Shown: positions 2,453 through 63,812, numbered from the stretch's first letter. The stretch is 64,000 nucleotides of DNA from a virus (IMGVR_UViG_3300037424_001167:3867-67866); one strand, 5' to 3'. Numbers and translations: made by a program. Notes: generated by a model not told the origin, from the sequence alone.

Positions 2453-4096
2453 ATGCTAGAATTGAGGCCGTATCAGGAAGAATGTGTTAATCGTGTTATT
2501 AATGCGTATAAAGCGTGTGAAAGTAAGTACGAAATAGCTGTAATGCCGACAGGCAGCGGCAAAACTGTATGCTTCAGCCACATAATACATCAACTGCAAA
2601 AAGAGCACAATATTAATGTGCTGATAATAGCGCATAGAGATGAATTATTGCAACAAGCATCGGACAAGTACCGGCTGATCAATCCCAGTGCCATCATAGG
2701 CAAGGTGGGAGCTGGTAGCTGTGAATATGGGGGTGAGGTTACGGTTGCCAGTATCCAAACAATATGCAGAGACAAGCATATTGAAAAGATGCAAAACATC
2801 GGGTATGGCCTCATTATAGTAGATGAGGCACATCACACTCAATCGCCATCGTACAAAAAGGTATTAGAGTCTCTACCAGACGCATTTGTTCTGGGGGTAA
2901 CGGCTACACCAGAGCGGCTAGACAAGAAGGATATACTGAGAGGCCGTAAACCTCTCTATGAGATTGATATCCAGACTATGGTAAAAAATGGCTACCTCTG
3001 CAACTTCAGGGCAATAGCTATCCAGACACACATCAATATCGACAACGTGCGCAAATCGATGGGTGACTTCAACGAAGTCGAGCTGGATAGGGCTGTGAAC
3101 GTACCAGAACGCAATCAGTTGATCGTATCTAAATATAAGGAATATGCCAGTGAGAAGCAAGCTGCATGCTTCTGCGTGTCCGTAGAGCATGCAGAGATGA
3201 TGTCCAGTGCATTCAATGAGTCAGGTATAGAGTCTGCTGTGATCAAAGGGTCAACTCCTCTAGAGGAGCGAGCCAGGATCTATGCAGCTTTTAAATCCGG
3301 TGATGTCAAAGTCCTCTGCTCTGTTATGGTGCTTACTGAAGGATGGGACTCTCCAGAGTGCGAATGTATCATTATGGCGCGGCCTACACAATCTAGAGGA
3401 TTATATATACAAATGTGTGGTCGAGGACTTCGTTTATCTCCTGGTAAGCAGGAGTGCTTAATGCTTGATATAACCGATAATTGCACAAAGCATAAGATGT
3501 ATCCTCAAAATCTTAAACGTGCAATTGGCATAGAAAATATGCGCAATGGGGAAGATATGCTGTCCCTCCTTGAGAGGGAAGAGAAGGAAGAAAAAGAAAT
3601 ACAGGTTCGTATTCTTAAAGAAAAGAGATTGAAGGATAAACCTGTAGACCTATTTGATAGATTTAATTGGAGTATAAATGAGCATGGAGTGCATGTTATG
3701 GAGGTAGGCCGAGCAAAGCATAAAATAGCGCTAATGCCTTCAAAAAGCAATCCAGAGCTTTATTACGTGGTAGCAAAACTTGCGCATGAAAACGGTGCAA
3801 GGCAGATGTGGGCAGACGAGCCTCTCCCTCTTCCCCTTGCAAGGGGAGAAGCGGAACGGGAAGCGTCCAAAATACTGGATGATCCGAATGAGAGCACCCA
3901 TCTCGTGGATCTTAACGCCGAATGGAGAAAGAGACCAGCATCAGAGGCGCAGCTGCAATTGATGTATTGGCAAGATATTCCTGTCCCAAGAGGTATAACG
4001 GCAGGGCAAGCGTCTAAGTTGATTGACGCTCATAAAGCTTCAGTCAAACTTGCCAAGCAGGCCCGCAAAGAAGCCAAGCAAGCAGTTGGAGCTTAA
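2453..4096 (+). CDS. SF2 DEAH-box helicase (RadD/IRC3-like)
   Basis: LRPYQ, PTGSGKT, DEAHH, TAT, LTEGWD, QMCGRGLR motifs. Confidence 0.9.
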   Translation: MLELRPYQEECVNRVINAYKACESKYEIAVMPTGSGKTVCFSHIIHQLQKEHNINVLIIAHRDELLQQASDKYRLINPSAIIGKVGAGSCEYGGEVTVASIQTICRDKHIEKMQNIGYGLIIVDEAHHTQSPSYKKVLESLPDAFVLGVTATPERLDKKDILRGRKPLYEIDIQTMVKNGYLCNFRAIAIQTHINIDNVRKSMGDFNEVELDRAVNVPERNQLIVSKYKEYASEKQAACFCVSVEHAEMMSSAFNESGIESAVIKGSTPLEERARIYAAFKSGDVKVLCSVMVLTEGWDSPECECIIMARPTQSRGLYIQMCGRGLRLSPGKQECLMLDITDNCTKHKMYPQNLKRAIGIENMRNGEDMLSLLEREEKEEKEIQVRILKEKRLKDKPVDLFDRFNWSINEHGVHVMEVGRAKHKIALMPSKSNPELYYVVAKLAHENGARQMWADEPLPLPLARGEAEREASKILDDPNESTHLVDLNAEWRKRPASEAQLQLMYWQDIPVPRGITAGQASKLIDAHKASVKLAKQARKEAKQAVGA

Positions 4097-4216
4097 TCCT
4101 GTCCAGTCGCGTATAGATAGTGTCCACATCATTGACACATGCCGTGGACACTATCTATACTTGGAATGGTTCCGCTTTTATTCTCCCCCCCCCTTTATTT
4201 TTGAAAGAGATCAAAG

Positions 4217-4588
4217 ATGACTCAAATAAAAGATACCGATACGTCCTCCATTTCAGCTCCGCATGTCCATTGCCGTGAATTCGAATATTCTTATGCATTC
4301 AAGCTGCATTCAGATCATTCGCTTACAATGGGCACCACAAGCGCCGATGGCATTCCATCGTTTTCAATTTCCATTGATGATCAATATCTCTTACACCCAT
4401 TACAAGAGATTAATTTCAACAAGGAACAATTCGCTGTATTTAGATACGCAATAAACAATATGCCTATTTCAGAGATAAACAAAGTGTACCCACTGGAAAG
4501 AGATTTTAATCTTTCCAGTGGGCAAATTGGTCATCTACGGCATATTGTTAATCATCCTGAAACGCTTAGGAGATTTCACATCCGTTAA
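4217..4588 (+). CDS. Hypothetical protein
   Basis: 123-aa ORF; no recognised motif. Confidence 0.5.
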   Translation: MTQIKDTDTSSISAPHVHCREFEYSYAFKLHSDHSLTMGTTSADGIPSFSISIDDQYLLHPLQEINFNKEQFAVFRYAINNMPISEINKVYPLERDFNLSSGQIGHLRHIVNHPETLRRFHIR

Positions 4589-4874
4589 GTTCAGGGGAGG
4601 CATTGTCCTCCTCAATTTTTTTGAGCTGATCCAAGCTTGTGATCTTAGTAGGTGCCATTCGCAATTGGTGCAGATCTTCCTCTAAAATGTATACAGCTTT
4701 AGGATCTGCATTAAACGTCCATAGGACGAGTTTTCCTCGCCTAACAAGAGAGTCTCTTAGTTTTCTCCATCCCATCGGGCTGTATCCTAAATCGGATGCC
4801 GCCTTGGTCATATTGAGGTACCGGATACCGTCAACAATCCGTACCCCTTTTTCTGGTTTTTCTGGCTTGTTCAT
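4566..4874 (-). CDS. Small HTH DNA-binding protein, paralog of 2232-2435
   Basis: DGIRYLNMTKAASDLGYSPMGWR; start set at MNKPEK after GGGAGG. Confidence 0.6.
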   Translation of the reverse strand: MNKPEKPEKGVRIVDGIRYLNMTKAASDLGYSPMGWRKLRDSLVRRGKLVLWTFNADPKAVYILEEDLHQLRMAPTKITSLDQLKKIEEDNASPELNGCEIS

Positions 4875-4935
4875 GATTGTCCTCCCCGTACTTTCGTTTG
4901 TGTTTTTACACGACAACATGTCGCAACACACAGTA

Positions 4936-4988
4936 ATTCTAACAAAAATATGGCAAGATTGCAACAAACTTTCGTCACAATCTTGCCA
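4936..4988 (-). promoter_or_regulatory. Promoter overlapped by an 11-bp inverted repeat
   Basis: Minus strand TTGCAA-17-TAGAAT; TGGCAAGATTG (4951-4961) and CAATCTTGCCA (4978-4988). Confidence 0.6.
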
Positions 4989-5004: not shown

Positions 5005-5277
5005 TTACCAAATGTTAACGCTAGGTCGGGGCTTGGATGTCCAGTCACTGGGTGAGAGGCACCCCAGGCACATCCAACCTCCTGATAGAGACGCCCATAT
5101 CCAACGCCTTGTCTTGTCGTTTTTGCAAATGTAGCACTTGTGAGACGGTTTGGGGGATCTAGACGATGGTACTAGTCCCTTTGATTTGTACTCTTCCAGA
5201 ACGAATTGCCTCATTTCACCAGGAAGCTCGTGAAACGTGATAACACCGCCTTGCAAGGGGGATTGTGTTTTAATCAT
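5005..5277 (-). CDS. Small Cys-rich (2x CxxC) hypothetical protein
   Basis: CYIC and CLGC motifs; operon context. Confidence 0.5.
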   Translation of the reverse strand: MIKTQSPLQGGVITFHELPGEMRQFVLEEYKSKGLVPSSRSPKPSHKCYICKNDKTRRWIWASLSGGWMCLGCLSPSDWTSKPRPSVNIW

Positions 5278-8604: not shown

Positions 8605-8635
8605 ATCCCCATTGCACGCACCTTGCAATGGGGAT
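8605..8635 (-). terminator. 12-bp hairpin, probable terminator
   Basis: ATCCCCATTGCA-cgcacct-TGCAATGGGGAT next to an A run. Confidence 0.6.
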
Positions 8636-10301: not shown

Positions 10302-12520
10302 TAAATTGCGATCTCCTCTTCACAGAAGTCCCACAACGTTGTTTGCGTCCGTGCACTAAGAGCATTCTCAATGTTCTTGCACGCTGTTTTAAAGTAACTT
10401 GGCTTAAGCTCTATTCCTACAAATTTCCTATTTTGCTGCATTGATACATGTCCTTCCGACCCGATACCCATAAAAGGACTAAGGACCGTTTCGCCTGGAT
10501 TGCTCCATAGCCTGATGCATCTCTCAATAACGCCTAATTGAAGAGGACATACATGCTTTTCATCTTTTTCCTCTTTTGCAACTTTTGTGTTGAGCGTTTC
10601 CGTTTCCTTGATGTCATACCAGATGGGACGAGCCCACTGTATCCATTCTTCGTTGGTGACATCTGGAAGGATTGGGACTGCATTGGTTCCTGGCTTCCTG
10701 AATAGGAGAATATAGTCTGCAAGCCCTGGGCGGGACCAAGAACTGTCCTTATGCAGCTGAATAAACATGAGGCCTTTTGCTTTTGTTCTAACAGCTTGAA
10801 CCTGTGGGTCCTTATCAATTACCACTTCTCCATGATAAACAAAGCCTCTATCCACAAATGCTCTAACTACCTCACCTCGAAAGTCCTTCAGGCCAATAAA
10901 ACCATCATGAACGAGGCTTGCAGCTAGCTGCTGAACATGAACACATACGTTCCTACCTTGCTTTGTTACTCTAAGTAAGTGGTCAATAATGTAGTAAAAG
11001 TGCTCGTAGAATTGTCCCTCGCTTTTGCAATTGCCTAAATCACGCTCTGTAGCAGAATACGTGTATAAACTGGAAAATGGAGGTGAAAAGACCGATAAGT
11101 CGACTGATGCATCTGCAACCTCTGCAAGCCGTTCACAGGAGTCTCCTAGCATCAAGGTGTAGTTTTCATCTCGAATAGTCTTTTCTGTATATTCTGGTTT
11201 CTGCTCTACGTTTTCGATTTCATCGCGCTCAAACTGTGTCACATGCTTGATCAGTTGATCGTTCATTTTTGTTGCTTCTTTCTCTTTCTCTATGACGTTC
11301 TGAAAGATCTCTTCCTCAATTTCCGATAATACAATATACACATTTACAGGATGATCTTGTCCGAAACGATAACATCTACGCACTGCTTGGTAGTATAACT
11401 CAAATGAGTCATTTAGCCCGACAAAGATCATATTGTGACAATTCTGGAGATTAATGCCTGAACCTGCAATCTTTGCTTTTGTGATCAGGACGCGTATTTT
11501 GCCGTCCTGAAATCTCTCGATTGCCCAGATCTTCTTGTCAGGCTTGTCGGATCCGCAAATCTCCATACTATCGGTAATACCCCTTGCAAGGAGGGATGAC
11601 TCATCGTTCATCCCACACCAGATCACCCATTGTTCGTCACTTGACTTCACAATCTCAATGGCGGCTTGCACACGCTCCTCAATGGTGCCCTTACGGGCCT
11701 GTGAACGCTCTACGATGCCCTTCAAGCCTGCAAAGAATAGTTGACCTTCGGGCACGTAGTCGGAGGCCGTAACGACCTTGTGGACGTTAAGCGGAGGAAG
11801 AATGTAGCCTTCATCGGAATAGTTTCCAATATTGGATGGCAACTGCACGGACATAGACCAGCTAGCAAGCCACTTGTAAAAGGCGTCCTGAGCATGTCCT
11901 TTGAGTCTCCAGCCGTCCCCAGATCCATTCCGACTATCGTGGACAAAGAACATGCTGAGCATCTCTCCCCTGGTCATGATGCCAAGGAATTCAGCATGCT
12001 GCCCTATTTCCGTGTGATCATTTGGTGCAGGGGTAGCTGTGCAGCACAAACGATACGGCGTACTCCTAAACATCTCTATGAGCTTGGTGCGTATTGCGCC
12101 TGTAAGGCTCTTGAGGATTGAAGACTCGTCTAGAACAACAGTTCCAAAGTCATCGGGATTGAAATGAGAAATCATCTCGTAGTTGGTGATATTGATGCCA
12201 TCGATCAAATCATTCCTTGAACGCGTGTAGTGGGCCGTGATACCGATTTTTAGCGCCTCAGAGACTGTTTGGCGGGCTACGGACAGCGGAGCGATGATGA
12301 GTGATCGTTCCCCAGTAAGCCTGGCAAATTCCAATTGACAGTTTGTCTTCCCTAAACCTGTATTGGCGAATAGTGCCGCTCTTCCCTTTCTGAGCGCCCA
12401 CTGAACTAATGCCTTCTGGAATGGAAACAACCGATCATGTATCAATGTGAGTGGGACCTCAATCCCACTCGACTGCAATATTACGCTTTTTGACTGTAAG
12501 AAATCTTCGTATGCTAACAT
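10301..12520 (-). CDS. SNF2-like helicase fused to an N4/N6 DNA methyltransferase
   Basis: TGLGKT, LDESS, TATP, QAVRRCYRFGQ, followed by SPPF (motif IV) and SPFMGIGS (motif I). Confidence 0.88.
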   Translation of the reverse strand: MLAYEDFLQSKSVILQSSGIEVPLTLIHDRLFPFQKALVQWALRKGRAALFANTGLGKTNCQLEFARLTGERSLIIAPLSVARQTVSEALKIGITAHYTRSRNDLIDGINITNYEMISHFNPDDFGTVVLDESSILKSLTGAIRTKLIEMFRSTPYRLCCTATPAPNDHTEIGQHAEFLGIMTRGEMLSMFFVHDSRNGSGDGWRLKGHAQDAFYKWLASWSMSVQLPSNIGNYSDEGYILPPLNVHKVVTASDYVPEGQLFFAGLKGIVERSQARKGTIEERVQAAIEIVKSSDEQWVIWCGMNDESSLLARGITDSMEICGSDKPDKKIWAIERFQDGKIRVLITKAKIAGSGINLQNCHNMIFVGLNDSFELYYQAVRRCYRFGQDHPVNVYIVLSEIEEEIFQNVIEKEKEATKMNDQLIKHVTQFERDEIENVEQKPEYTEKTIRDENYTLMLGDSCERLAEVADASVDLSVFSPPFSSLYTYSATERDLGNCKSEGQFYEHFYYIIDHLLRVTKQGRNVCVHVQQLAASLVHDGFIGLKDFRGEVVRAFVDRGFVYHGEVVIDKDPQVQAVRTKAKGLMFIQLHKDSSWSRPGLADYILLFRKPGTNAVPILPDVTNEEWIQWARPIWYDIKETETLNTKVAKEEKDEKHVCPLQLGVIERCIRLWSNPGETVLSPFMGIGSEGHVSMQQNRKFVGIELKPSYFKTACKNIENALSARTQTTLWDFCEEEIAI

Positions 12521-12999: not shown

Positions 13000-13191
13000 T
13001 ACAATACTGTACAATATACATATGCCCCCTTGCATGGTGAAATGTTAACATTAGTTTCTTTTTCTGTAATACCAGGTGCAAGTTGTGTAGGTGTGCAAGT
13101 CTTGACTGTGGACCAGCCTGTGAAGCGGGTTTAGGTATGATTTTTGACGTGCATTGAAGCTGCATAGACATGCACAGGCTAAAAATGGACA

Positions 13192-15861: not shown

Positions 15862-16328
15862 TTGCCTATCCTGTCTATGCATACGCTTATTGCAATCTCA
15901 CATCTAGGATTATCTCTGTCCGCGTATTTCTCTCCACTAAAACGAACAACGCGATTATCATTTATTCCTATTTCATCAAATGCTGCATCCTCTGCTGCTT
16001 TTATTGCACCTGATGCATCTCTCCTCCACAGTGTATCAAAATAGAAGATCAAATGCCATGCAAGGGGGATTTTGACCTTACTTGCCTTAATTGCTTCAAT
16101 AACAGCATCATTCCTTTTGATATTCATCAACTGATAATGAGCCTCTTCCTTGAAATTAATTAAGGCTTCCGTGCCCATAATCGCATGTGCATGTTTTCCC
16201 TGCTTTGTCACCATACTCCTAATGTTGAACGATTTGTTCACACTTGGCGGTAATGGCATCGTGGCCACAAAGAACGGCTCCAAAGGCCACACCACCCCTT
16301 GCAAGGGGGGTGCTTTAGCTTTTGTCAT
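15858..16328 (-). CDS. rusA: RusA-family Holliday junction resolvase
   Basis: MPLPPSVN, RRDASGAIKAAEDA, GINDNRV motifs. Confidence 0.75.
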   Translation of the reverse strand: MTKAKAPPLQGVVWPLEPFFVATMPLPPSVNKSFNIRSMVTKQGKHAHAIMGTEALINFKEEAHYQLMNIKRNDAVIEAIKASKVKIPLAWHLIFYFDTLWRRDASGAIKAAEDAAFDEIGINDNRVVRFSGEKYADRDNPRCEIAISVCIDRIGK

Positions 16329-21315: not shown

Positions 21316-21350
21316 AACGTGTCCTTTCTTTCCCCTTGCGAGGGGTGGTG

Positions 21351-23160: not shown

Positions 23161-23777
23161 CTTCTCACCCTCTTCCTTGTAGCTTTCTTGCGTTTCAATC
23201 TCGCTGCTTGCTCCCGTTTGTGGATATCTAATTTACGCTCTCTGTACTCAAGTGCAGCTCGCTTGCGGTATCCGGCCTGAACACGCTTGACCGTCTTGTG
23301 AGCGCTCTTGACGGCCTTGACCGTGCCCTTGGCCGTACGGGCAATAGCCTTGCCGGTGGACTTAAGAGCTTTCACTGCAAAGCGCCCAAAACGATCACGG
23401 GGATGCTGGCTTTCCTTGTAGACAACCCCTTGCAAGGGGGATGCTTTGAGTTTCTTCCTGGCAGTTGCCTCCTTGCGTTCCTCCTTTGGAACTGTCCGGC
23501 TCTTGCGGACAGTTCGATTTGCTATCCACTCGTCACGGGCACGTTCAGAGGATGTTCGATTGTCTGGAAGCTTGCGGCCTGGCTTCATTGGCAAATCGGG
23601 CATGCGCCCCATTTGGCGTATACCTTCTTGCCTTTCGTGCTCTTCTACGCGCATTCGACGATATTTTACATCGATGCGTTCCTGTTCCTCTTCACGAGCA
23701 ATTTCACGGAGAGTTTCCCTGGTTCGAAGGGAATCCCTTCTGATTTCTTCATTGGATCGTGGATCGTAGTATGCCAT
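23157..23777 (-). CDS. Highly basic Arg/Lys-rich protein
   Basis: HPRDRFGRF motif and a K/R/A-rich C-terminal half. Confidence 0.65.
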   Translation of the reverse strand: MAYYDPRSNEEIRRDSLRTRETLREIAREEEQERIDVKYRRMRVEEHERQEGIRQMGRMPDLPMKPGRKLPDNRTSSERARDEWIANRTVRKSRTVPKEERKEATARKKLKASPLQGVVYKESQHPRDRFGRFAVKALKSTGKAIARTAKGTVKAVKSAHKTVKRVQAGYRKRAALEYRERKLDIHKREQAARLKRKKATRKRVRR

Positions 23778-27201: not shown

Positions 27202-27330
27202 TCATGCACTCTTCCCCTTGCAAGGGGTGAGGAAGTGATCTACATGCACCATTTGCCCGCAATTGAGACAACGCACCGTGATAATCTTGCGCCCGATCGC
27301 GATAATCTTCTTATCTTGCTTCTTTTGCAT
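27202..27330 (-). CDS. Small zinc-finger protein
   Basis: RCLNC....VDHFLTPC; start set at MQKKQD. Confidence 0.5.
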   Translation of the reverse strand: MQKKQDKKIIAIGRKIITVRCLNCGQMVHVDHFLTPCKGKSA

Positions 27331-43187: not shown

Positions 43188-43188
43188 C

Positions 43189-43365
43189 ATGCCAGACAAG
43201 AAGGACACATTTATTATAGATGCAATGCCAATGCCGTTTGTCTCTCCCATCCTTCCATCCTCCTTGCAAGGGGAAGAGAAGAAGCTTGACGAGTCCATTC
43301 CTGGCGGGCGTTACATGGTGAATGGCGTGCTAGTTGATTGCAATGGTAAAGAGATCAAGGAATAG
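43189..43365 (+). CDS. Small head-associated hypothetical protein
   Basis: Fills the gap between capsid and adaptor genes exactly. Confidence 0.55.
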   Translation: MPDKKDTFIIDAMPMPFVSPILPSSLQGEEKKLDESIPGGRYMVNGVLVDCNGKEIKE

Positions 43366-46676: not shown

Positions 46677-49600
46677 ATGCTTTTAGCTCAGATGGTTGTT
46701 GAGTATGTTGCTGATATAACAAAGCTTGTATCAGGCGTGCAATCTGCCACGAAAAGCATGAATACTATGCAGAGCGCCGCTAGTGCATCTGCATCCTCAC
46801 TTACATCTAGTTTCAAAGGCGCTACGGCTTCTGTTCAGGCCTTGGCCAAGAAAGCAGAAGACGCGGGCCTTAATGTGGCAAAGCTTGCAAGCTTACAACT
46901 GAAGGCAGGTGAGAGTGCCTCTCGCTTATCCGTAGCACAGGCATCAGCGGCTCTTGCACTCAAAAAAGCCGATGATATGGCATTAGCTGGCACGGCAAGC
47001 GCACAGCAGATAGCTGTAGCACAGGCAAGAGCGGCTTTAGCTGCTGATCATGTCAAAGTAGCGGAGGATGCTGCTGCCAACGCCATGGCTAAAGTCGACG
47101 CGGAAAGCAAGAAGTTGTCCGACGCGCTGCAAGATGCAACATCTAAGTCCTCCCTCCTTGCAAGGGGGGCAGATGCGCTTAAGGGATCTCTTGAGTCTAT
47201 GGGTGAGCAAGCTAAAGCGATTACGGCAGTAGGTCTTACAATAGCAGCTGGTGGGGCTCTGGCACTTGGCGGCGCTCTGGCATCGACCGTTGGACCGGCT
47301 AAAGATTTTCAAGCAACCATGCTCAAGGTAAATGCTCTTGCCGGTCTATCAAAGAAAGAGGTAGACGCTGCAAGTGATGCTATTCTTCGCATGGCAGGCA
47401 GAGTGGGCAAGGGGCCTCAAGATTTAGCTGAAGGGCTCTACTACGTTGCATCCGCTGGCTATGATGCAAAAACTGCTATGGAGATCCTAGAAGTATCGGC
47501 AAAGGCCGCCTCAGTCGGCATGACCAGCACTCAGAATGTTGCAAATGCGTTGACAGCGGCGCTGGCAATCTTTCCTGGCATGGAAGTAGCAGAAGCTATT
47601 GACATGATGACTAAAACCGTTAGTACAGGCAAAACCGAATGGGAAGATTACGCCGTTGTTGTTGGCAAGATGGCAAAAAATGCATCAAACGCGGGTATTG
47701 AATTTGCAGAGGTAAATGCAGCATTTGCCGTCATGACAAACACCATGCCGTCCTCTGAGCAAGCTGCCGATGCTCTTAATGCACTTCTCCAGACATCATC
47801 TCGCTTTTCGTTGCTTACAGATAGGGCAGAAAAGCTAAATCTGACATTTGATATTAGCAAGTATAAGACGCTGGATTTAGCTGGTAGAGTCGCATATTTA
47901 AGCGAAGTGACTGATGGCAATACAGAGTCCATGACCACGATGCTAGGTCAAGAAAATGCAGTCATTGCAGCGACTACAATAGCAGCAGAAGGCGCTGCTG
48001 ATTATACCAAAGCTCTTGATGGCATAACTAATTCGTCAGGTGCAGCAAATACCGCATTTTCTACAGTGGCAGCAGGGGCACAAGCCTCATGGGACAAAGC
48101 GAAGGGATCACTTGAGGCACTTCAGATTAAGATAGGCAATGCGCTTATTCCTGCTGTTACAGCTTTTACTGACAAAGTAGCGCCATTAATTGGCAAAATG
48201 ATCGAATGGGCCGAAGAAAATCATATTGTTGAAAATGCTACAAATGCAATATCAGGCGCGTTAACAAGTGCCAGCAAAGAAATGTCTAAATTTGTAGATA
48301 TTGGAACAAAGGTTATAAACTTCTTTAAAGAGAATGAAGGCGCAATGGCCGCCTTTCAGATCACAGGTGCCATGCTAGCCGCTACATTTACAGCTATTGC
48401 GGTTGCGGCAGGCGCTGCGGCCATTGCAGAGGCAGCTGCTGCATGGCCTATTCTGCTTGTGGTGGCAGCTGTAGCAGGATTAACGGCGGCGTTTATTTAC
48501 TTCTACAATAACGTAAAACCATTCCGTGACTTTATGGATGCTCTTGGTGCTGTTTTCATGAAAGTGTGGGCAGTGGTTGTTGAGCAGTTTACACCCGCAT
48601 GGAACGAATTAAGCATTGCATTCAAAAAAATACAGCCTGCGCTTGAAATGGTTGGTAGAATATTAGGTGGTGTGCTGCTTGTTGCAATTGGTCTTGTATT
48701 TGCCGCTGTAGTTGCACTTGCACTGGGTCTGGCAGCTTCTGTAGGAGGTATTGTCCGCGTATTCACGGGTATGGTCGAGATTGTATCAGGCGTATTTGAT
48801 GTTTTAGGCGGCGTATTCCTATTCGTCATGGATTTGATCACAGGTCGGTTTGATAAGCTTGGAGGGGATTTAGCACGTATTGGTGGGGGTTTCATACAAA
48901 TATTTAAAGGATTGTGGGATGTGATCGCGGGTATATTCCAAACTGCCGTGGGAGTGGTATGGGGCATCATTGCAGGGTTTTGCCAAGGCATTATTGGTTA
49001 TTTCCAAGGTCTGTGGGATACGCTGGTAGGACACTCAATCATTCCTGACATGATCAATGCTATCGTCAACTGGTTTGCGCAGTTGCCCGCCCGTGTTGGT
49101 GCATGGGTCATTAATATGTATAATACGGTCATTGATTGGTTTGGCAAGATGCCAGGCAGGATAATGGAATTCTGGGAAACAATAAAAAGCAATATAGGTA
49201 CCGCGTGGAGCTGGATACAAACTACTATATCAAGTAAAGCTGGTGAGATATTCAATAATATTATGAGTCCATTCAATAGAGCACGTGATGCAATTGGCGG
49301 TGTTGTCAAGGGATTTGTGAATAATGCAGTAAGCGTTCTTAATAGCGGTATAGGCGGCGTAGAAAGCTTTGTTAATTTATTCGGAACTGCAATTAACTGG
49401 ATTGCCGACAAGCTTGGTGCTGGCAATCCAATTCCTCATTTTGGTATCGGGCGCATACCAGGCTATGCAGCTGGCACTGACTTTCACCCAGGCGGTCCTG
49501 CAATCGTAGGAGAGCGCGGCCCTGAGCTGCTCATGCTGCCTAAAGGATCAAGTGTACTTCCCAACAATCGGACCATGCAACTCCTTGCAGGGGGAAGCAT

Positions 49601-50420
49601 ACCAGGCTATGCAGAGGGCATTGGGGATATTTTCTCTTGGATTGGAGGGGGCGCAAAATCTATTCTCGACAATGTCATGAGTGCCATGAATGTCAATCTC
49701 TCCCTCCCTGGTAGCTTGAGCGGCATGGCGTCGGGAATGGTTGGAAAGGTCAAAGATTGGGCGCTAGGCTTTATTGATAAGATGTTGCCTAAGTTCGGAG
49801 GCGTAGGGCCTGACGGCAAGCCTGTCAATATCCCTGGCGATGTGGCCTCATGGATTGCTTCTGCCATGGCTCTTACGGGTACTCCCGCAAGTTGGGGACA
49901 GCCTCTAGGCGTGATCGCCATGCACGAGTCAGGAGGTAATCCAAATGCTCAGAATAACTGGGACAGCAATGCAGCAGCGGGCATACCTTCAAAAGGCCTG
50001 TTCCAGACAATCGAGCCAACATTTAGAGCACATATGCTACCAGGGCATACCAACATATTCAATCCAATTGACAATGCAGCAGCTGCAATAGGGTATATCA
50101 AAGGACGATATGGCGATGTGTTTCATGTGCCAGGGATAATGGCAATGGCACAAGGAAAGCCGTATATCGGATATGCAGGCGGTGGCATTATAAACGAGCC
50201 CATAGCAGGAGTAGGACTCAAAACAGGTACAAGGTATGGATTAGGTGAGAATGGACCAGAGGCTGTTATGCCTCTAAGCAAGCGCTCAAATACCACCCTG
50301 CAAGGGGGAAGTAACAGAGAAGACATTCACGTACACGTTTATTGGGATGGCAGGGATATAACGGATAAAGTGCAAACACGGGTATTGAAGGAGAGTAGAA
50401 GGGGGCCAATACGGGCATGA
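46677..50420 (+). CDS. Tape measure protein with a C-terminal lytic transglycosylase domain
   Basis: TP901-like core, aromatic 11-residue repeats, HESGGNPNAQNNWD...GLFQ...AAAIGYIKGRYG. Confidence 0.92.
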   Translation: MLLAQMVVEYVADITKLVSGVQSATKSMNTMQSAASASASSLTSSFKGATASVQALAKKAEDAGLNVAKLASLQLKAGESASRLSVAQASAALALKKADDMALAGTASAQQIAVAQARAALAADHVKVAEDAAANAMAKVDAESKKLSDALQDATSKSSLLARGADALKGSLESMGEQAKAITAVGLTIAAGGALALGGALASTVGPAKDFQATMLKVNALAGLSKKEVDAASDAILRMAGRVGKGPQDLAEGLYYVASAGYDAKTAMEILEVSAKAASVGMTSTQNVANALTAALAIFPGMEVAEAIDMMTKTVSTGKTEWEDYAVVVGKMAKNASNAGIEFAEVNAAFAVMTNTMPSSEQAADALNALLQTSSRFSLLTDRAEKLNLTFDISKYKTLDLAGRVAYLSEVTDGNTESMTTMLGQENAVIAATTIAAEGAADYTKALDGITNSSGAANTAFSTVAAGAQASWDKAKGSLEALQIKIGNALIPAVTAFTDKVAPLIGKMIEWAEENHIVENATNAISGALTSASKEMSKFVDIGTKVINFFKENEGAMAAFQITGAMLAATFTAIAVAAGAAAIAEAAAAWPILLVVAAVAGLTAAFIYFYNNVKPFRDFMDALGAVFMKVWAVVVEQFTPAWNELSIAFKKIQPALEMVGRILGGVLLVAIGLVFAAVVALALGLAASVGGIVRVFTGMVEIVSGVFDVLGGVFLFVMDLITGRFDKLGGDLARIGGGFIQIFKGLWDVIAGIFQTAVGVVWGIIAGFCQGIIGYFQGLWDTLVGHSIIPDMINAIVNWFAQLPARVGAWVINMYNTVIDWFGKMPGRIMEFWETIKSNIGTAWSWIQTTISSKAGEIFNNIMSPFNRARDAIGGVVKGFVNNAVSVLNSGIGGVESFVNLFGTAINWIADKLGAGNPIPHFGIGRIPGYAAGTDFHPGGPAIVGERGPELLMLPKGSSVLPNNRTMQLLAGGSIPGYAEGIGDIFSWIGGGAKSILDNVMSAMNVNLSLPGSLSGMASGMVGKVKDWALGFIDKMLPKFGGVGPDGKPVNIPGDVASWIASAMALTGTPASWGQPLGVIAMHESGGNPNAQNNWDSNAAAGIPSKGLFQTIEPTFRAHMLPGHTNIFNPIDNAAAAIGYIKGRYGDVFHVPGIMAMAQGKPYIGYAGGGIINEPIAGVGLKTGTRYGLGENGPEAVMPLSKRSNTTLQGGSNREDIHVHVYWDGRDITDKVQTRVLKESRRGPIRA

Positions 50421-55500: not shown

Positions 55501-58500
55501 ATGACAGCTCTTACCGGACATGCAGTTACAACGAATTCAGCAGTTATCACAACGTGTGAACAGCTAATTACTGCATCAGGCGGCGCAAAAGGTACGGCTG
55601 TCACGAATAAAATCGGTACTTTGACCGGATGGGGGCAAATTCGGTCGCAGGGCAATACTGGGAACTGGCCTGCGTTAGGGTCTATCGGTAGTCCTGATGG
55701 GTTTGGATGGTTTTTAGATGGTACCACATTAGACGGCAATAAACTCGACTCAGGTAATTATGCGTTCACTTTTACATTCAGAACAAATATAGTCAATATT
55801 GACTGCAATTTCACATTTCGCGCGTATAAATATAATGGGAGCAGCTATACTTCTATTGGGTCTGTTACGTCATCTGACCAAGGTATTGGCAGTAGCGTTG
55901 ATACAACGGTAAGCGTTACGATATCTGGCGCGTCTGCTGTATCGTTTACTTCGTCAGATCATCTCTATATTGATTGTTGGTGTAATGTTACCAACAACTT
56001 CTTTGGCGGCTCAACTACTACAATCAGTTATTTTCCTTCAAATAGCACATCAGCAGGATGGGCAGATGCACGATGTGTCACGCCTGGATATTCGCCATCT
56101 AGCTCTACACGAACAATTACATCTACAACGGCTTTACTTAAATCTAATACACGAACAATTACATCTACAACGGCTTTACTGGAAACAAGGACACGAACTA
56201 TTGCAACATCGATAGCTGTACTTGCTACAGTCTCAAAAGCAATATCAAGCACATCAACTTTACTTCAGACATTAACACGTACTATCAGCTCTAACACGGC
56301 TTTATTGTTTACTAATACACGCACAGCTACATCTACATTGGCTTTACTTAAATCGTCTACGCGTGCCATTTCATCTGACGCTGCACTGCTTGCTACGAGT
56401 GCACGCGATATCAGTTCAGACGTGTCATTATCAGGAAATACTAAAACAATATCATGTGATGCTGCTTTACTTTTAGTATCCAATAGAGACATTGCATCCG
56501 ATGCAACGCTTTTACAAACATTCACACGGGCCATAAATGCTGCTTCATCACTTATTCAGACATCAACACGCTCCATTGGCAGCGATATAGCGCTATTGGC
56601 GATAAGCACGCGATCAATTAGTACCTCAATCGCATTGAAGCAAGAAAGTGCCCGTACAGCTTCACTGGACGCGGCTCTACTCCAAACTAATACGAGAGCT
56701 ATCACGAGCACAGGCGCTCTGCTTCAAACTACTGCAAGAATTATTAGCAGCAATACGTCTCTTTTGTCTATTAATGCACGCACTATAAGCTCAGATGCAT
56801 CTTTACTTCAAACTAATACGAGAGCCACAATATCAAATACCGCTCTACTCCAAACATCTATACGCACCATTTTATCTAATAGTGCATTTATTTCCACGCA
56901 GATCAGAGCTATTGGCACATCAGTGGCTTTAGAGGCATCAAGAACAGTATTATGTGATACGGCATTACTGGCAATAAGTACGCGTACAATCTTATCAGAC
57001 TCTGCATTCCTGCAAGCCCGTACGCGTACAATAAGTTCCGATACAGCACTATTGGCAATAAGTACGCGTACAATCTCAACAAATGCAACACTCCTGGCAA
57101 CTCTTAGCAGATCTATCTCCGCAGACTCATCTCTGCTTCAATCTAGTACACGCGAAATAATCACTGATGCATCTTTACTGCAAACAAGCGCTAGAGTGGT
57201 CACTGCTAATACTGCTCTTCTGGCCACTCTTACTAGGACAATCCCGTCAGATGCTGCCTTCATCGCAACTCTTAGTAGAAACATCCCATCCAATGTTTCA
57301 TTACAAGCAATAAGAACAATTCTATCTGATACAGCATTATTGGCAACATTAAGTAGAGCAATAGCCTGTAATGTTGCATTGATTGGGGCAGTACGGGTAA
57401 TCTCCTGTGATGCATCATTGCTGCAAATGAGTACGCGGGATATCCCTTCTAGTGCCACCTTGCAAGGGGTATTTACTCGTGATACCAGCTCAAGTGCAGC
57501 TTTACTTCAAGTAGCGGCGCGTGTCATTAGCTCTGATGCGGCTTTACTGGCCACTCTTAGCAGATCTGCCTTATCTACTACTGCGCTGTTAGGCGCTGGT
57601 GTTCGATCCATAAGCGCATCTGCCTCCTTGCTGGCAGTATCTGCCCGTAATGTTGTGTCTGATGTTGCTCTGCTTCAAACGTCTATACGCACTGCTGTAT
57701 CAGATGTGGCTCTTTTAGCTACACTGAGTAGGATTATCTCATCTGATGTTGCATTGATTGGGGCATCACGTGTAATTACTACAAGCGTTGCTCTACTGGC
57801 TACCAGCACCAAGACCATCTCATCCGATACGGCTTTACAAGCTACGGGGTCACGATCCACGAGCACATCAGTGGCTTTGCTGGCTATATCCACGCGGGTT
57901 ATTGGCTCCGATACAGCCTTATTGGCCACTTCGATTAGAGTTATCTCCGTAGACGCGTCCTTGATGCTGATTGTGGCCAAGATTGTCCCGTCTGATGCTT
58001 CGATCCTCGCAATCCAGAGCAGGTCTATTTCTTCAGAGGCTGCGCTTTTAGCAACGCCAAATAGATCAATCCTGTCAGATGTGTCGTTACAAGCATTAAG
58101 GACTGTCCCGTCTGATGCTGCATTGCTTGCAACATTAAGTAGAGCAATAGCATGTAATGTTGCATTGACAGGCTCTGCACGTGCTATATCCTGTGATGCG
58201 GCGTTACTGCAAGTAGACACGCGGATTATCCCATCTAATACCCCCTTGCAAGGGGTATCTGTCCGTAATGTTTCATCTGATACTGCTCTGCTTCAAGCAT
58301 CTATACGTGCTGTCATCTCAGATACGGCGCTTTTAGCTACACTGAGCAGGATCATCTCATCTGATGTTGCATTAACTGGTACGTCGCGCGTGATTGCTTG
58401 TAGTGTAGCTATCCTGGCTGTTAACGTCAGGACTGTCCCGTCTGATGTGTCCCTACTGCAAACAAGCACTAGATCCATACTATCAGATGTTGCGTTACTT

Positions 58501-60383: not shown

Positions 60384-60404
60384 CCACCTTGCAAGGGGGA
60401 TGTC

Positions 60405-61511
60405 ATGATACCACAGTTTTGCGACTTATCGCAATTTCAGCCACAATATATCGACTGGCAAGCGTACAAGGCATGGAGTGCAAGCCGCGATGGTATAAGT
60501 CGTGTAGCGCTCCGATCAAGTTACGGTACTGGCTATAAAGATCAGCATTTTGATGCATATAGAACAGGGGCTTTAGATGCTGGCATTGATGTAATTCTGT
60601 ATTATCACTACAGCTATCCTAATCTGAATAAAGCACAACAAGAGGCAAACTGGCAGCATAGTGTTGTAGGGGCAATACGCGCTCAGGATTTGCTGATATT
60701 GGATATTGAGGAGAATGTGCCGCAAGCTACGGGCGCATGGGCGTACGCCTGGCTTGCTCAGCAGGAATCCAACTATGGGGGCAAGCTACCAGGTATCTAT
60801 GCCAGTTCTTCCTACATTCAGCAGAGATTGCAGGACGCCAGACTGGCCCGCTATCCGCTCTGGCTGGCAAACTGGACATTCACGCCTGATGCAAGGCCTT
60901 CGTGTCCTGCCCCTTGGACATCATATCAATTTCTCCAATATACCGATAAAGCAAACGGCATCCCAGGTATTGCCGGTACTGTTGATGCCAATATTTTTCT
61001 AGATAAAACACAACCGAAACCAGAGGAGAAACCAATCATGATCGATCTAAACAATCCAACCGTTGCTAGTCATTTTAAAGCAGAAGGCGCTGCATGGAAA
61101 TGCAAAGACAAAGGCCACGATTATACAATACACGGTGAAATACTTGCAACTTACCAGAAATACGGCAAAAGCGATCTTTGCGGATTAAGTTTCTTAGGAC
61201 TTCCATTGTCTAATGAAATACCAATTGTAGGACATGTAGGAGTTGCATACCAACGGTTTGAACGGGGTGTGCTCTGCTTTGACCCAGTGCCTCACGCTGT
61301 TGACACGCCTCCCGGACTAGAGAAGGCCCGTGTTTATCCTCTCCACATTGACTCTGGAGTTGGTCAAGATCCCAGGGTGACCTCCTTGCAAGGTGAGAAT
61401 GCAGCGCTCAAGGCTTTGCTCGCTTCCTCAAAGCTGGGACAGATTAATATCATTGGCAAGCGCGTCCAAGCTGATGCACAGTTGATTATTGACGCCACTC
61501 AGGTTCAATAG
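60405..61511 (+). CDS. Endolysin, GH25 muramidase with an LGFP-like C-terminal domain
   Basis: DLSQFQ, YYHY, ILDIEE, LWLA.W, FLQYTD, VDANIF; LGLPLSNE...QRFERGVL. Confidence 0.92.
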   Translation: MIPQFCDLSQFQPQYIDWQAYKAWSASRDGISRVALRSSYGTGYKDQHFDAYRTGALDAGIDVILYYHYSYPNLNKAQQEANWQHSVVGAIRAQDLLILDIEENVPQATGAWAYAWLAQQESNYGGKLPGIYASSSYIQQRLQDARLARYPLWLANWTFTPDARPSCPAPWTSYQFLQYTDKANGIPGIAGTVDANIFLDKTQPKPEEKPIMIDLNNPTVASHFKAEGAAWKCKDKGHDYTIHGEILATYQKYGKSDLCGLSFLGLPLSNEIPIVGHVGVAYQRFERGVLCFDPVPHAVDTPPGLEKARVYPLHIDSGVGQDPRVTSLQGENAALKALLASSKLGQINIIGKRVQADAQLIIDATQVQ

Positions 61512-62190: not shown

Positions 62191-62537
62191 GTCTACAACA
62201 GGAACAACAGGATGTTATCGATGCAGAAGCGGCTCTTATTGCGCTTGGAGCGTTGTCAGCAGATAACTTTAATCAAGCTCATCAACTACTCAAGAAGCGG
62301 AAAAATGCTCAGGACAACATTAATACGATCCAATCAAACCAATTTCATCCTGATGCCTTTAATCTCATTAATCAAATTCAAAACAAAGCAGCTCAAACAG
62401 ATAAGGTCGTGGTGATATCGCAGTTCTTACGTACATTTGCAGAGTATATCGCAACACAGACGCAAGCACTGCAAGGGACACATCCAACAATTAAGGACAT
62501 AGTAGACAATATAATTCCCATGGGAGGAGAGAACTGA
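62187..62537 (+). CDS. Hypothetical protein
   Basis: Coupled ORF with AAGGAG RBS. Confidence 0.65.
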   Translation: MSLQQEQQDVIDAEAALIALGALSADNFNQAHQLLKKRKNAQDNINTIQSNQFHPDAFNLINQIQNKAAQTDKVVVISQFLRTFAEYIATQTQALQGTHPTIKDIVDNIIPMGGEN

Positions 62538-62580
62538 TTTTGCTTTAATAGCTGTAAGATAGCATTCTTTGAGGTGACAC

Positions 62581-62838
62581 ATGAGTCAGTTCAAGAAACC
62601 CTTTAAATTGCCATATGACGATGACTTTGGATCTTTAGATGCATTTCATAATATTGACACTGCAAAAGTAAAAGCTATCTGGCCTGTTAACAAGCCAAAG
62701 GAGAAGAAAAAGATAACGATTGTTAACTTTGCAATCATAATGTTTATATCGATGATAGGTTTGATGTGTATCTACACGTTCTTTATTATTTTTATCGCGC
62801 TTTTGAAGATATTCATACTAATAGTGATTGGAGGGTAG
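62581..62838 (+). CDS. Small membrane protein
   Basis: C-terminal hydrophobic stretch; GAGGTG RBS. Confidence 0.6.
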   Translation: MSQFKKPFKLPYDDDFGSLDAFHNIDTAKVKAIWPVNKPKEKKKITIVNFAIIMFISMIGLMCIYTFFIIFIALLKIFILIVIGG

Positions 62839-62906
62839 ATATTCTGGGCTGATTATGGTATTCTTAGCTTGATTAAAGAAACATTTTCGCAAGCTAGGAG
62901 AAAACC

Positions 62907-63812
62907 ATGGCAGGCCTTATTGTAACGGGGTTCGAAACCTCAATTCTTGCAGGGCACGTTAGTCAGTCGTCGATCGACATGTACACCCGTGACTTTGCAG
63001 CTTATCTTTCCTATGCAGGATCTAAGGATAGTGCATTTAATACGGTCACACTTAACCGATGGGTGTCCCATCTGGTGAATGACTCTGATATGTCACCAAA
63101 TACAATCAATCGTATGGTAAGCGCCGTAAAGAAGATCATGATAGTTGCGTCCAAACAAGGGTATATCTCATCTGAGCTTGCAGAGTCGTTCAAGCATGTT
63201 GACGGTGTTAAGGCTAGTTCTCTCAAGGGCAGAATGCGTATTAGGAATAGAGTAAAGATAGAGCCAGAGCAGATGCGTGCCATCATAGACTCCATTGACC
63301 GCTCTACGCTGGTGGGGATGCGCAATGCTGCACTCTTTATCACTCTCGCATCATCTGGGTTACGGGTAAAAGAGTTATCCCTCTTGAAGCAAGAGCAGGT
63401 GATCAAAAGGGGAGATGGCTACTTCCTCCATATGTATGCTGAGCACGGTAAAAATCAGGAGGAGGACAGAGAGGCGTATATCTCTGTAGAGGCTGTAGAG
63501 GCTATCAGGGAGTGGCTAGAGGCCCGTCCCATTGAAAGCCCCTATATCTTCACGTCATTCCAAGGGAAGAGCATGATGGCAAATGAGAAGCCTATCTCCT
63601 CGCAAGGGGTATGGAATGCAGTTAAGGAGATAACAGAGGCGCAAGGACTCCAAGATATTAAGCCCCATGACTTTAGAAGATTTGTTGGAACGCAACTTGC
63701 TAAGAAGGATATTCGCATAGCCCAAATGGCATTAGGGCATAAGAGGATAGAGACAACTGTAAAATATGATTTACGTGAAATTGAGGTAGGGACAACGGAC
63801 AATCTGTTCTGA
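62907..63812 (+). CDS. Second tyrosine recombinase (XerC-like)
   Basis: SSGLRVKE, HGK, KPHDFRR, LGH..IETT.KY. Confidence 0.93.
   Translation: MAGLIVTGFETSILAGHVSQSSIDMYTRDFAAYLSYAGSKDSAFNTVTLNRWVSHLVNDSDMSPNTINRMVSAVKKIMIVASKQGYISSELAESFKHVDGVKASSLKGRMRIRNRVKIEPEQMRAIIDSIDRSTLVGMRNAALFITLASSGLRVKELSLLKQEQVIKRGDGYFLHMYAEHGKNQEEDREAYISVEAVEAIREWLEARPIESPYIFTSFQGKSMMANEKPISSQGVWNAVKEITEAQGLQDIKPHDFRRFVGTQLAKKDIRIAQMALGHKRIETTVKYDLREIEVGTTDNLF

What the first reader, a model, noticed from the sequence alone, without database searches (positions are those of the whole stretch)
3833..63609. Highly iterated 14-bp palindrome CCCCTTGCAAGGGG, mostly embedded in coding sequence
Seen: 6 exact copies (3833, 16295, 23426, 27214, 35880, 58242), 7 with one mismatch (5247, 21332, 33899, 43260, 47154, 57456, 60385) and at least 8 with two (13026, 34588, 34749, 35562, 49581, 50294, 61382, 63596). 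A given 14-mer is expected about 0.0002 times in 64 kb at uniform composition. It sits in different reading frames (PLQG, PCKG, LARG), so selection acts on the DNA. Mismatches favour position 2/13. The 57456 and 58242 copies come from one internal duplication. Variants cluster at 33.9-35.9 kb around repeat B and the att-like site. Established: dispersed palindromes such as parS, matS, NBS, ram and HIP1 are binding or modification sites. Inference: a genome-organising site for segregation, translocation by the FtsK/TraB-like ATPase, a nucleoid protein or the methylase, or an unrecognised host signature.
Basis: partly seen in the sequence, partly recalled or inferred. Interest (0 to 1): 0.75.

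Follow-up and report, generated by a model that had tools for sequence, protein, structure and literature searches.

The report
Phage-specific iterated palindrome, reader unknown
A family of temperate phages of Ktedonobacteria (Chloroflexota) keeps about one copy every 2 kb of the palindrome CCCCTTGCAAGGGG written through its genes, while the host chromosome lacks it, so it is a selected phage DNA signal, most likely a protein-binding site whose reader is still unidentified.

Summary
The window has 6 exact copies and 25 copies with up to 2 mismatches; dinucleotide shuffles give 0.16 and synonymous-codon shuffles 7.9. The whole 67.9-kb contig has 7 exact and 28 in total.

The contig is a temperate siphovirus-like phage. 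At least five further phages, only 30-60% identical in protein, carry 16-25 copies of the core CCTTGCAAGG. One is a 51.9-kb prophage in the complete chromosome of Ktedonobacteria bacterium brp13. That prophage holds 17 of the chromosome's 19 copies of CCCTTGCAAGGG, so a host-wide signature is refuted.

Sites diverge about four times less than their flanks between close relatives. Between distant relatives they sit at different positions, but the density is kept.

The motif does not follow the packaging, head, ParM, FtsK-like or methylase genes. It does not follow the replication and recombination module either: two complete phages share that module without the motif. It does follow one Xer-like integrase clade, and one copy always lies between attP (a tRNA-Arg fragment) and the integrase start.

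Two lineage-specific flavours exist. Conserved variants do not fold as hairpins.

Best reading (0.42): duplex sites for a dimeric protein, used as dispersed operators, closest to stoperators. The scan has noted iterated phage palindromes on other DNA, but not this word.

The parts
3833..3846 (.). exact copy, inside the SF2 helicase gene (PLARG frame)
   Evidence: identical at the orthologous position in G009
5247..5260 (.). 1-mismatch copy CGCCTTGCAAGGGG
8619..8632 (.). 2-mismatch copy, intergenic
11580..11593 (.).
13026..13039 (.). variant CCCCTTGCATGGTG beside AT-rich inverted repeat A; same variant as the int-proximal site
16295..16308 (.). exact copy near the start of the RusA-like gene
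21332..21345 (.). 1-mismatch copy
23426..23439 (.). exact copy
27214..27227 (.). exact copy at the 3' ends of two convergent ORFs
29249..29262 (.). 2-mismatch copy
33899..33912 (.). 1-mismatch copy CCCCATGCAAGGGG; start of the att-region cluster
34588..34601 (.). variant CACCATGCAAGGGG, unchanged in relative L116
34749..34762 (.). variant CCCCATGCAAGGTG, intergenic
34961..34974 (.). 3-mismatch site TACCATGCAAGGGG with one perfect half, left of AT-rich repeat B
35202..35226 (+). three direct TGCAAG half-sites, starts 9 and 8 bp apart, at the right edge of AT-rich repeat B (mirror set CTTGCA x2 at 12792-12807; TGCAAG x2 at 13077-13099)
35482..35521 (-). attP core: 3' half of a tRNA gene; tRNA-Arg(CCG) in the brp13 prophage
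35562..35575 (.). int-proximal copy CCCCTTGCATGGTG, about 40 nt from attP, overlapping the integrase start; present at this position in all motif-bearing relatives examined
35570..36637 (+). Xer-like tyrosine integrase; its clade co-occurs with the motif
35880..35893 (.). exact copy inside the integrase gene
43260..43273 (.). 1-mismatch copy; exact in G009 and L116
47154..47167 (.). 1-mismatch copy in the tape-measure gene
49581..49594 (.). 2-mismatch copy in the tape-measure gene
50294..50307 (.). 2-mismatch copy; exact in G009
57456..57469 (.). 1-mismatch copy in the 1194-aa repeat protein
58242..58255 (.). exact copy, 786 nt after the previous one (old duplication)
60385..60398 (.). 1-mismatch copy, intergenic, at Shine-Dalgarno distance from the next gene
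61382..61395 (.). 2-mismatch copy; G008 has a site at the orthologous residue
63596..63609 (.). 2-mismatch copy
63948..63961 (.). 2-mismatch copy, followed by the terminal poly-G run of the contig
1261..1274 (.). 3-mismatch site with one perfect half
16054..16067 (.). 3-mismatch site with one perfect half

Best explanation
Shown by the data: CCCCTTGCAAGGGG is a duplex-DNA recognition word that one lineage of temperate, tRNA-Arg-integrating phages of Ktedonobacteria keeps at about one copy per 2.2 kb over the whole genome. The footprint is about 24 bp: G is avoided in the 4-5 nt on the 5' side and C in the 4-5 nt on the 3' side. Selection holds individual copies in place over short evolutionary distances. 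Over long distances it keeps the density while positions turn over.

Inferred mechanism: a sequence-specific protein binds each copy as a symmetric dimer. The densest cluster, with weaker variant half-sites, flanks attP, the AT-rich repeats and the integrase start. I read that cluster as the control region, for example for regulating int. The dispersed intragenic copies would then act as genome-wide operators or roadblocks that help keep the prophage silent, or otherwise organise the phage DNA. This is how the repressors of cluster A mycobacteriophages use stoperators.

I take it to be phage-encoded because the outer positions of the word differ between the two phage sublineages.
For: Enrichment beyond composition, codon usage and protein sequence.

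The word has reshaped the proteins. PLQG, [PL]LARG and PCKG are roughly 20 to more than 50 times more frequent, and [PST]LQG about 11 times, than in residue-shuffled proteins. The Cys-containing frame is under-used, 14 against 47 and 49.

Purifying selection. Sites diverge 3.2% and 2.7% against 13.7% and 9.0% for the flanks in two close relatives (pooled Fisher p = 6e-6), and several changes move towards the consensus.

Phage-specific. The brp13 prophage, bounded by tRNA-Arg and a 45-bp repeat, holds 17 of the 19 chromosomal copies of the 12-mer and 21 sites with up to 2 mismatches.

Duplex recognition rather than a hairpin. There is no compensatory change. Conserved variants fold at -0.2 to -2.4 kcal/mol, no better than shuffles. 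In one flavour position 1 is invariant while the neighbouring position 2 is free.

Half-sites almost never occur alone.

A copy sits between attP and the integrase start in every member examined, and the variant CCCCTTGCATGGTG is identical in G000 and G008.

Two lineage-specific flavours exist, as described for stoperator motifs among cluster A subclusters (PMC6550527).

Similar numbers per genome (20-31) and spacing slightly more even than random.

Intergenic positions are enriched 2.8-fold, 23 observed against 8.2 expected.
Against: No phage protein was found that is present in all motif-bearing genomes, absent from the motif-less relatives and plausibly a dimeric regulator. The only clade-specific universal gene is the integrase, which looks like a simple Xer-type enzyme. 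The 216-aa double-HTH protein is found in only 4 of 6 genomes. The HTH_17 proteins either also occur in motif-less phages or have divergent recognition helices.

The 10-bp core is identical across phages that are only 30-60% identical in protein. That is unusual for immunity specificities, which normally diversify.

The obvious divergent switch region at about 29.9 kb carries no copy.

84% of the sites lie inside ORFs and the word is palindromic, unlike stoperators.

The link with the integrase clade could instead reflect a shared host group, and so a host-encoded reader.
Confidence: 0.42

Rival explanations
1. Host-encoded reader. Phages that use this integrase and tRNA-Arg attB share a host group, and a host protein (regulator, nucleoid protein or defence component) binds the word. 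The phages accumulate copies to recruit or titrate that protein.
For: The motif tracks the integrase/att clade, which is a proxy for host, and not any other phage module. The core is identical in very divergent phages. No universal phage-encoded DNA-binding candidate was found.
Against: Host chromosomes carry essentially no copies, so such a protein would have almost no chromosomal targets. The two flavours follow phage sublineages. The hosts of most of the contigs are unknown.
Confidence: 0.2
2. Replication or recombination signal. The copies would be initiator, helicase-loading or priming sites, or a Chi-like protective word, read by the phage's DnaG-like primase, SF2 helicase, SSB-like protein or Cas4-like exonuclease.
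For: TGCAAG half-sites, direct and inverted, 8-17 bp apart, flank both AT-rich origin-like repeats. Three full copies flank the AT-rich region of G007. The density of about 1 per 2 kb and the fairly even spacing resemble Chi or Okazaki-fragment spacing. G010 lacks both the early module and the motif.
Against: Complete phages G517 and G518 carry the same exonuclease, SSB-like protein, helicase, primase and 586-aa protein (30-54% identity) without the dispersed motif. Chi-type words are asymmetric and host-wide. Hairpin-type priming signals are not supported.
Confidence: 0.15
3. Modification-linked or mutationally driven word. The copies would be targets of a methyltransferase, or products of a biased short-patch repair or gene-conversion process that writes the word into resident DNA.
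For: An N6/N4 methylase fused to an SNF2 helicase is present in G000, G008 and G519, the lineage in which the outer C/G is invariant. The head module, shared with motif-less G010 and apparently recently acquired, is site-free in G000 and G009, as if copies accumulate with residence time. The sister lineage G518 carries CCCTTGCC(W)GG, which contains a CCWGG word.
Against: G006, G007 and the brp13 prophage have no homologue of that methylase. No Vsr-like gene was seen. A 10-14-bp specificity is long for such systems. Over-representation of a methylase target is not expected in itself.
Confidence: 0.1
4. RNA-level element. Because the word is palindromic, every transcript carries CCCCUUGCAAGGGG as a small hairpin, or an SD/anti-SD pair, used for processing, stability or translational control.
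For: The right half resembles a Shine-Dalgarno sequence, and about 5 of 28 copies sit at SD distance from a start codon, including the integrase start in G006 and G007.
Against: No covariation. Conserved variants do not fold. Most copies are deep inside genes. Position 1 is invariant while position 2 is free, which is not a stem-like pattern.
Confidence: 0.05
5. Host-wide signature of the HIP1, REP or uptake-sequence type, passively shared by the phage.
For: The same 14-mer is iterated 35-69 times in three unrelated MAGs (an Anaerolineae, a Chloroflexota and a Planctomycetaceae genome).
Against: In those MAGs it is the core of longer GC-rich hairpin repeats with genome-specific flanks, in genomes of 53-66% GC. 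Ktedonobacteria, the indicated host class, have background counts, and in brp13 the word is confined to the prophage.
Confidence: 0.03

Closest known systems
Stoperators and operators of cluster A mycobacteriophages (L5, Bxb1), bound by the immunity repressor (PMC6550527, PMC9283540)
   Same: Temperate phages of 50-70 kb. A few dozen copies of one 13-14-bp word spread over the whole genome, with similar numbers in each genome. The motif differs slightly between sublineages. A conserved copy sits at a control region. The genomes have a Cas4-family gene and either an integrase or a partition locus.
   Different: Stoperators are asymmetric, oriented with transcription and bound by a monomer, and by my recollection they lie mostly in short intergenic gaps. 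Here the word is a perfect palindrome and 84% of copies lie inside ORFs. No repressor has been identified, and the core is conserved across much deeper divergence.
Conserved inverted repeats (CIRs) of Streptomyces phage phiC31 bound by its repressor; dispersed C1 operators of phage P1; KorB OB sites of IncP plasmids (recalled from my own knowledge, not read here)
   Same: Palindromic or fixed operators scattered at a dozen or more loci around a temperate phage or plasmid genome, and used by one global regulator.
   Different: Here there are no -10 boxes next to the sites and no reader.
HIP1 (GCGATCGC) of cyanobacteria and other host-wide iterated palindromes
   Same: A short palindrome in coding and non-coding DNA and in all frames. 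It shapes protein sequences, and its function is unknown.
   Different: HIP1 is a property of the host chromosome. This word is absent from host chromosomes and confined to the phage or prophage.
parS, matS, NBS and SBS sites (ParB, MatP, Noc, SlmA)
   Same: 12-16-bp palindromes, often inside genes, read by dimeric DNA-binding proteins that organise a replicon.
   Different: Those sites are chromosomal and regionally clustered, and their reader families are known. The Pfam, PHROG and NCBIfam scans of about 60 selected ORFs named no ParB-, MatP-, Noc- or SlmA-like protein, and the ParM locus occurs in only 2 of 6 genomes.
Iterated AGTACT palindrome of Rak2-like jumbo phages
   Same: A phage-specific, selected, iterated palindrome that is nearly absent from hosts, with an unknown reader.
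   Different: A different word and a different phage group. Here there is an integrated prophage in a cultured isolate and a positionally conserved copy at att/int.

Membership tests
Host-wide iterated palindrome (HIP1-like, REP or uptake sequence) | High density throughout the host chromosome | tested here: not met
   brp13 chromosome (8.88 Mb): 17 copies of CCCTTGCAAGGG in the 51.9-kb prophage and 2 elsewhere. 400 Chloroflexota genomes and 151 genomes of the host class are at control level.
Host-wide iterated palindrome (HIP1-like, REP or uptake sequence) | Palindrome present in coding and non-coding DNA in all frames | tested here: met
Stoperator-type dispersed repressor sites | Tens of copies of one word spread over a temperate phage genome, similar numbers per genome | tested here: met
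   20-31 sites per complete genome, mean spacing 1.7-2.9 kb
Stoperator-type dispersed repressor sites | Bound by the phage immunity repressor | not testable with these tools
   No repressor identified. The candidate HTH proteins are not universal or not specific.
Stoperator-type dispersed repressor sites | Asymmetric site oriented with transcription, mostly in short intergenic regions | tested here: not met
   Perfect palindrome. 117 of 140 sites lie inside ORFs, although intergenic placement is 2.8-fold enriched.
Stoperator-type dispersed repressor sites | Motif varies between sublineages | tested here: met
   C-N-CCTTGCAAGG-N-G against CCCTTGCAAGGG; one-off word CCCTTGCC(W)GG in G518
Centromere or nucleoid sites (parS/ParB, matS, NBS, SBS) | Cognate reader family encoded, and sites clustered in one replicon domain | tested here: not met
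   Only ParM (type II) was found, and only in G000 and the brp13 prophage. The sites are dispersed. The search for a ParB-like gene was not exhaustive.
Chi-like recombination word | Asymmetric, orientation-biased, over-represented in the host genome, read by a helicase-nuclease | tested here: not met
   The word is palindromic and absent from hosts. Phages with the same exonuclease and helicase lack it.
Intrinsic terminator or structural hairpin | Stable stem kept by compensatory change, followed by a T-run | tested here: not met
   No T-run and no covariation. Conserved variants fold no better than shuffles.
Promoter (-35-like TTGCAA) | -10 box 16-18 bp downstream | tested here: not met
   2.3% of motif-directed positions against 2.2% of random positions
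Methyltransferase or R-M target | Cognate methyltransferase present wherever the word is kept | tested here: inconclusive
   The PF01555 methylase-helicase fusion is present in G000, G008 and G519 only. Other methylase families were not searched in G006, G007 or the prophage.

The most novel reading that the evidence does not exclude
The word is a phage 'identity tag' that travels with the integrase/att cassette and is gradually written into newly acquired modules. The head module shared with motif-less G010 is still site-free. On this reading the tag is read over the whole genome by a factor not yet known, for example to tell phage DNA from host DNA for protection, silencing or synapsis of prophage ends. 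That would be a class of phage signal distinct from promoter-linked operators.
Probability: 0.15. Interest if true: 0.8.

Novelty: new variant of a known kind. Interest (0 to 1): 0.55.

Why it matters
Phages of Ktedonobacteria are essentially unstudied. This lineage shows a clean natural experiment: the same 10-14-bp word is kept at constant density through exchanges of the head, packaging and replication modules, and it is absent from the host.

One member is an intact prophage in a cultured isolate (brp13).

If it is not, this is a new kind of phage genome tag.

In practice the word also marks this phage lineage in metagenomes.

Tried and rejected
- **Host-wide signature:** rejected.
- **Packaging signal:** rejected. 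TerS/TerL and the head genes differ among motif-bearing phages, and the head module of G000 has no site.
- **FtsK/TraB-like ATPase, ParM/ParR:** not conserved among motif-bearing phages.
- **Methylase-helicase fusion as universal reader:** absent from G006, G007 and the brp13 prophage.
- **Replication/recombination proteins as readers:** weakened by G517 and G518.
- **HTH_17 protein at contig 2605-2796:** its closest homologue is in motif-less G010.
- **Helicase-adjacent HTH_17 proteins:** also present in G517, and their recognition helices are divergent.
- **216-aa double-HTH protein:** not found in the brp13 prophage or G519, even with a profile search.
- **Promoter reading:** rejected.
- **Hairpin or terminator reading:** rejected.
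- **Long-range GC-skew sawtooth**, as noted elsewhere in a Chloroflexi genome: not present; the bias is limited to about 5 nt on each side.
- **tRNA and Rfam scans of the window:** nothing found.
- **Megablast against GenBank phages:** no match.
- **Major capsid protein in the genome collection:** no relative found.
- **Literature search for the core word:** only chance hits.
- The first codon-shuffle script timed out and was re-run.
- The tallies include three genomes flagged as unpublished (G421, G431, G503; one copy each).

Full report
**1. Observation**

CCCCTTGCAAGGGG occurs exactly 6 times in the window and 25 times with up to 2 mismatches. Dinucleotide shuffles give 0 and 0.16. The window is bases 3867-67866 of a single 67,866-bp contig with 44.7% GC, which holds 7 exact copies and 28 in total.

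Four copies were missed: 8619, 11580, 29249 and 63948.

The half-word GCAAGGGG occurs 35 times on both strands (2.5 expected). It is almost always joined to a partner C-N-C-C-(T/A)-T, so the unit is the palindrome and not a lone half-site.

Copies lie in genes on both strands and in all three frames.

A stricter null reshuffles synonymous codons within each gene and so keeps every protein. It gives 0.12 exact copies (observed 7), 2.3 cores (observed 17) and 7.9 copies with up to 2 mismatches (observed 28). The peptides that the word encodes (PLQG, [PL]LARG, PCKG) are roughly 20 to more than 50 times more frequent than in residue-shuffled proteins. Selection is therefore on the DNA, and it has altered the proteins.

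**2. What the contig is**

PHROG, Pfam and NCBIfam scans identify the following:
- terminase, portal, major head protein and tail genes;
- a Xer-like tyrosine integrase;
- a ParM-like partition ATPase;
- a RadD/XPB-like SF2 helicase and a DnaG-like primase;
- a Cas4-like exonuclease and an SSB-like protein;
- an SNF2-helicase/N6-N4-methylase fusion.

This is a temperate siphovirus-like phage. It has no close relative among GenBank phages.

Integrase homologues carry the names Ktedonobacteraceae, Dictyobacter kobayashii, Thermosporothrix and Ktedonobacteria bacterium brp13. The host class is therefore Ktedonobacteria (Chloroflexota).

**3. Relatives carry the word**

An exact-word scan of IMG/VR returned many contigs that turned out to be relatives of this phage. 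Whole records give these counts of CCTTGCAAGG:

| Record | Size | Copies | Note |
|---|---|---|---|
| G006 | 55 kb | 24 | |
| G007 | 59 kb | 25 | complete |
| G008 | 52 kb | 16 | |
| G009 | 36 kb | 9 | close relative |
| G519 | 64.6 kb | 21 | complete |
| G010 | 71 kb | 0 | complete; shares the head module, with a major capsid protein 82% identical |

These phages are only 30-60% identical to the window's phage in the proteins they share.

**4. Not a host signature**

The genome-collection scan gave scattered single hits in all phyla. Three MAGs with 35-69 copies use the 14-mer as the core of longer GC-rich REP- or terminator-like hairpins. Each has its own flanks, and their GC content is 53-66%. 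They are unrelated to this case.

Among 400 evenly drawn Chloroflexota genomes only the query MAG was rich in the word. Among 151 genomes of the class of G040, the 12-mer CCCTTGCAAGGG occurred 0-4 times, like the reversed control word, with two exceptions:
- G040 has 9 copies, 7 of them on one 8.3-kb phage-like contig.
- G496 has 19 copies.

G496 is the 8,879,929-bp chromosome of Ktedonobacteria bacterium brp13. Its integrase matches the named protein at 377 of 378 residues. Seventeen of the 19 copies, and 21 sites with up to 2 mismatches, lie inside a 51.9-kb prophage. The prophage is bounded by tRNA-Arg(CCG) and a 45-bp direct repeat of its 3' end. It is related to the window's phage (integrase 50%, helicase 49%, exonuclease 56%, primase 44%, ParM 35%, tail protein 37% identity).

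The density ratio between prophage and chromosome is above 1000. The word is phage-specific.

**5. Selection and turnover**

Against the close relatives G009 and L116, sites differ at 4 of 126 and 3 of 112 positions. The 300-nt flanks differ at 13.7% and 9.0% (pooled Fisher p = 6e-6). Several changes move towards the consensus.

Between distant relatives the sites mostly sit at non-orthologous positions, with a few coincidences, while 20-31 sites per genome are kept. Spacing is slightly more even than random: the coefficient of variation is 0.51-0.82 in five of six genomes, against a simulated 0.95.

The asymmetry of imperfect copies follows from coding constraint. In the common frame (S/T/P)-L-Q-G, position 13 is a Gly wobble base and stays G, whereas position 2 is a first codon base and varies. 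The Cys-containing frame is avoided (14 against 47 and 49).

**6. Nature of the recognition**

Pooled over 155 sites, G is depleted at positions -1 to -4 (5-14%) and C at +1 to +5 (8-16%). Beyond about 10 nt there is no bias. The footprint is therefore about 24 bp, and there is no long-range skew sawtooth.

Two flavours exist:
- In G000, G009, G008 and G519 the outermost C/G is invariant (123 of 126) while position 2 is C in only about 65%.
- In G006, G007 and the brp13 prophage position 2 is C in about 87% while the outer position is free.

Conserved variant copies fold no better than shuffles as single strands (-0.2 to -2.4 kcal/mol; -5.1 for the perfect copy). No -10 boxes follow the TTGCAA core. 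These features point to a dimeric protein reading duplex DNA.

**7. Which genes go with the word**

- Packaging and head modules differ among the motif-bearing phages. The FtsK-like ATPase occurs only in this phage, and ParM only in this phage and the brp13 prophage. The methylase fusion occurs in only one flavour group.
- The exonuclease, SSB-like protein, helicase, primase and 586-aa protein are shared by all motif-bearing genomes. They are also present (30-54% identity) in two complete phages without the dispersed word. G517 has none in its early half and only 4-5 flank-less cores in tail genes. G518 instead has 12 copies of CCCTTGCC(W)GG.
- The one gene whose clade matches the word is the integrase. 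The motif-bearing genomes share integrases that are 52-69% identical. G517, G518 and G010 have integrases only 23-31% identical to that clade.
- In every clade member examined (G000, G006, G007, G008, brp13, G519 and G202:C554) a copy lies 40-70 nt from the tRNA-fragment attP core, at most about 40 nt upstream of or overlapping the integrase start where the start was read. G416:C295, whose integrase is 47% identical and which showed no tRNA-like fragment, also has a copy about 45 nt upstream of its integrase. G000 and G008 share the same variant, CCCCTTGCATGGTG.
- In this phage the att region (33.9-35.9 kb) holds six copies with up to 2 mismatches, one 3-mismatch copy and direct TGCAAG half-site repeats 8-17 bp apart at the edges of both AT-rich inverted repeats. 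In G007 three copies flank the AT-rich region beside att.
- The integrase looks like a simple Xer-type enzyme without an arm-binding domain, and the attP core contains no motif-like half-site.
- No other family is specific to all motif-bearing genomes.

**8. Interpretation**

Shown:
- The word is phage-lineage-specific and selected.
- It is read as duplex DNA.
- It has a positionally conserved copy at att/int.
- It exists in two lineage-specific flavours.

Inferred: it is the binding site of a dimeric protein. The att/int cluster is a control region, and the dispersed copies are genome-wide operators or roadblocks.

The closest known system is the stoperator network of cluster A mycobacteriophages. 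This word differs in being palindromic and mostly intragenic, and its reader is unknown.

The rivals are a host-encoded reader tied to host range, a replication or recombination signal, a modification- or drive-linked word, and an RNA element. They are ranked in the Rival explanations section with their evidence.

**9. Limits**

- Gene calls are a greedy longest-ORF approximation.
- Host names are known only for brp13 and for the named integrase homologues.
- Most small ORFs have no family match.
- Three genomes flagged as unpublished (G421, G431, G503) are included only in the tally.

Noticed in passing
L354 (G517:C1) 10190-10740: On the related phage contig IMGVR_UViG_3300027706_000010 there are at least eight tandem units with a period of about 74 bp. 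Each has a constant part (CTTGCAAGGCATGATAAGGA...) preceded by a variable part, like a CRISPR repeat-spacer array carried by a phage.
   Followed up: no
window 35357-35395 (+) and 35482-35521 (-): The two halves of one tRNA-like sequence (acceptor GTTCCCG / CGGGAAC) lie on opposite strands next to the integrase. The 3' half is the attP core. The same inverted-halves layout occurs in G006 and G519. ARAGORN calls no tRNA in the window.
   Followed up: partly
window 35530-35545 and 35240-35255; also G006, G519, L365: A second short word, CCGCT(T/C)(C/T)ACA(G/A)G, recurs between the att fragment and the palindrome and near the AT-rich repeats. It may be a recombinase or accessory-factor site.
   Followed up: no
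window 12787-13000 and 35009-35221: Two copies of an AT-rich inverted repeat are each bracketed by TGCAAG/CTTGCA half-sites, starts 8-17 bp apart, and by a variant palindrome. The layout is origin-like or control-region-like.
   Followed up: partly
window 63962-64000: The contig ends in a poly-G run directly after the last motif copy. This is probably a sequencing or assembly artefact.
   Followed up: no
L358-L360 (G518): A sister phage with the same replication module carries 12 copies of the one-off word CCCTTGCC(W)GG instead of the palindrome. It may be a diverged version of the signal.
   Followed up: partly
L241-L250, L162, L189 (MAGs G002, G004, G005): In an Anaerolineae, a Chloroflexota and a Planctomycetaceae MAG the same 14-mer is the core of 35-69 longer GC-rich hairpin repeats with genome-specific flanks.
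   Followed up: partly
L254-L256 (G007): A second iterated word, GTGTGAACCA, occurs 13 times on both strands (0.18 expected).
   Followed up: no
window, whole: TGCA is about twice as frequent as expected in this phage and in G009 (552 copies in 67.9 kb), beyond what the palindrome accounts for.
   Followed up: no
window 36640-43250: The TerS-TerL-portal-head module shared with the motif-less phage G010 is the largest site-free stretch. This fits recent acquisition of that module.
   Followed up: partly
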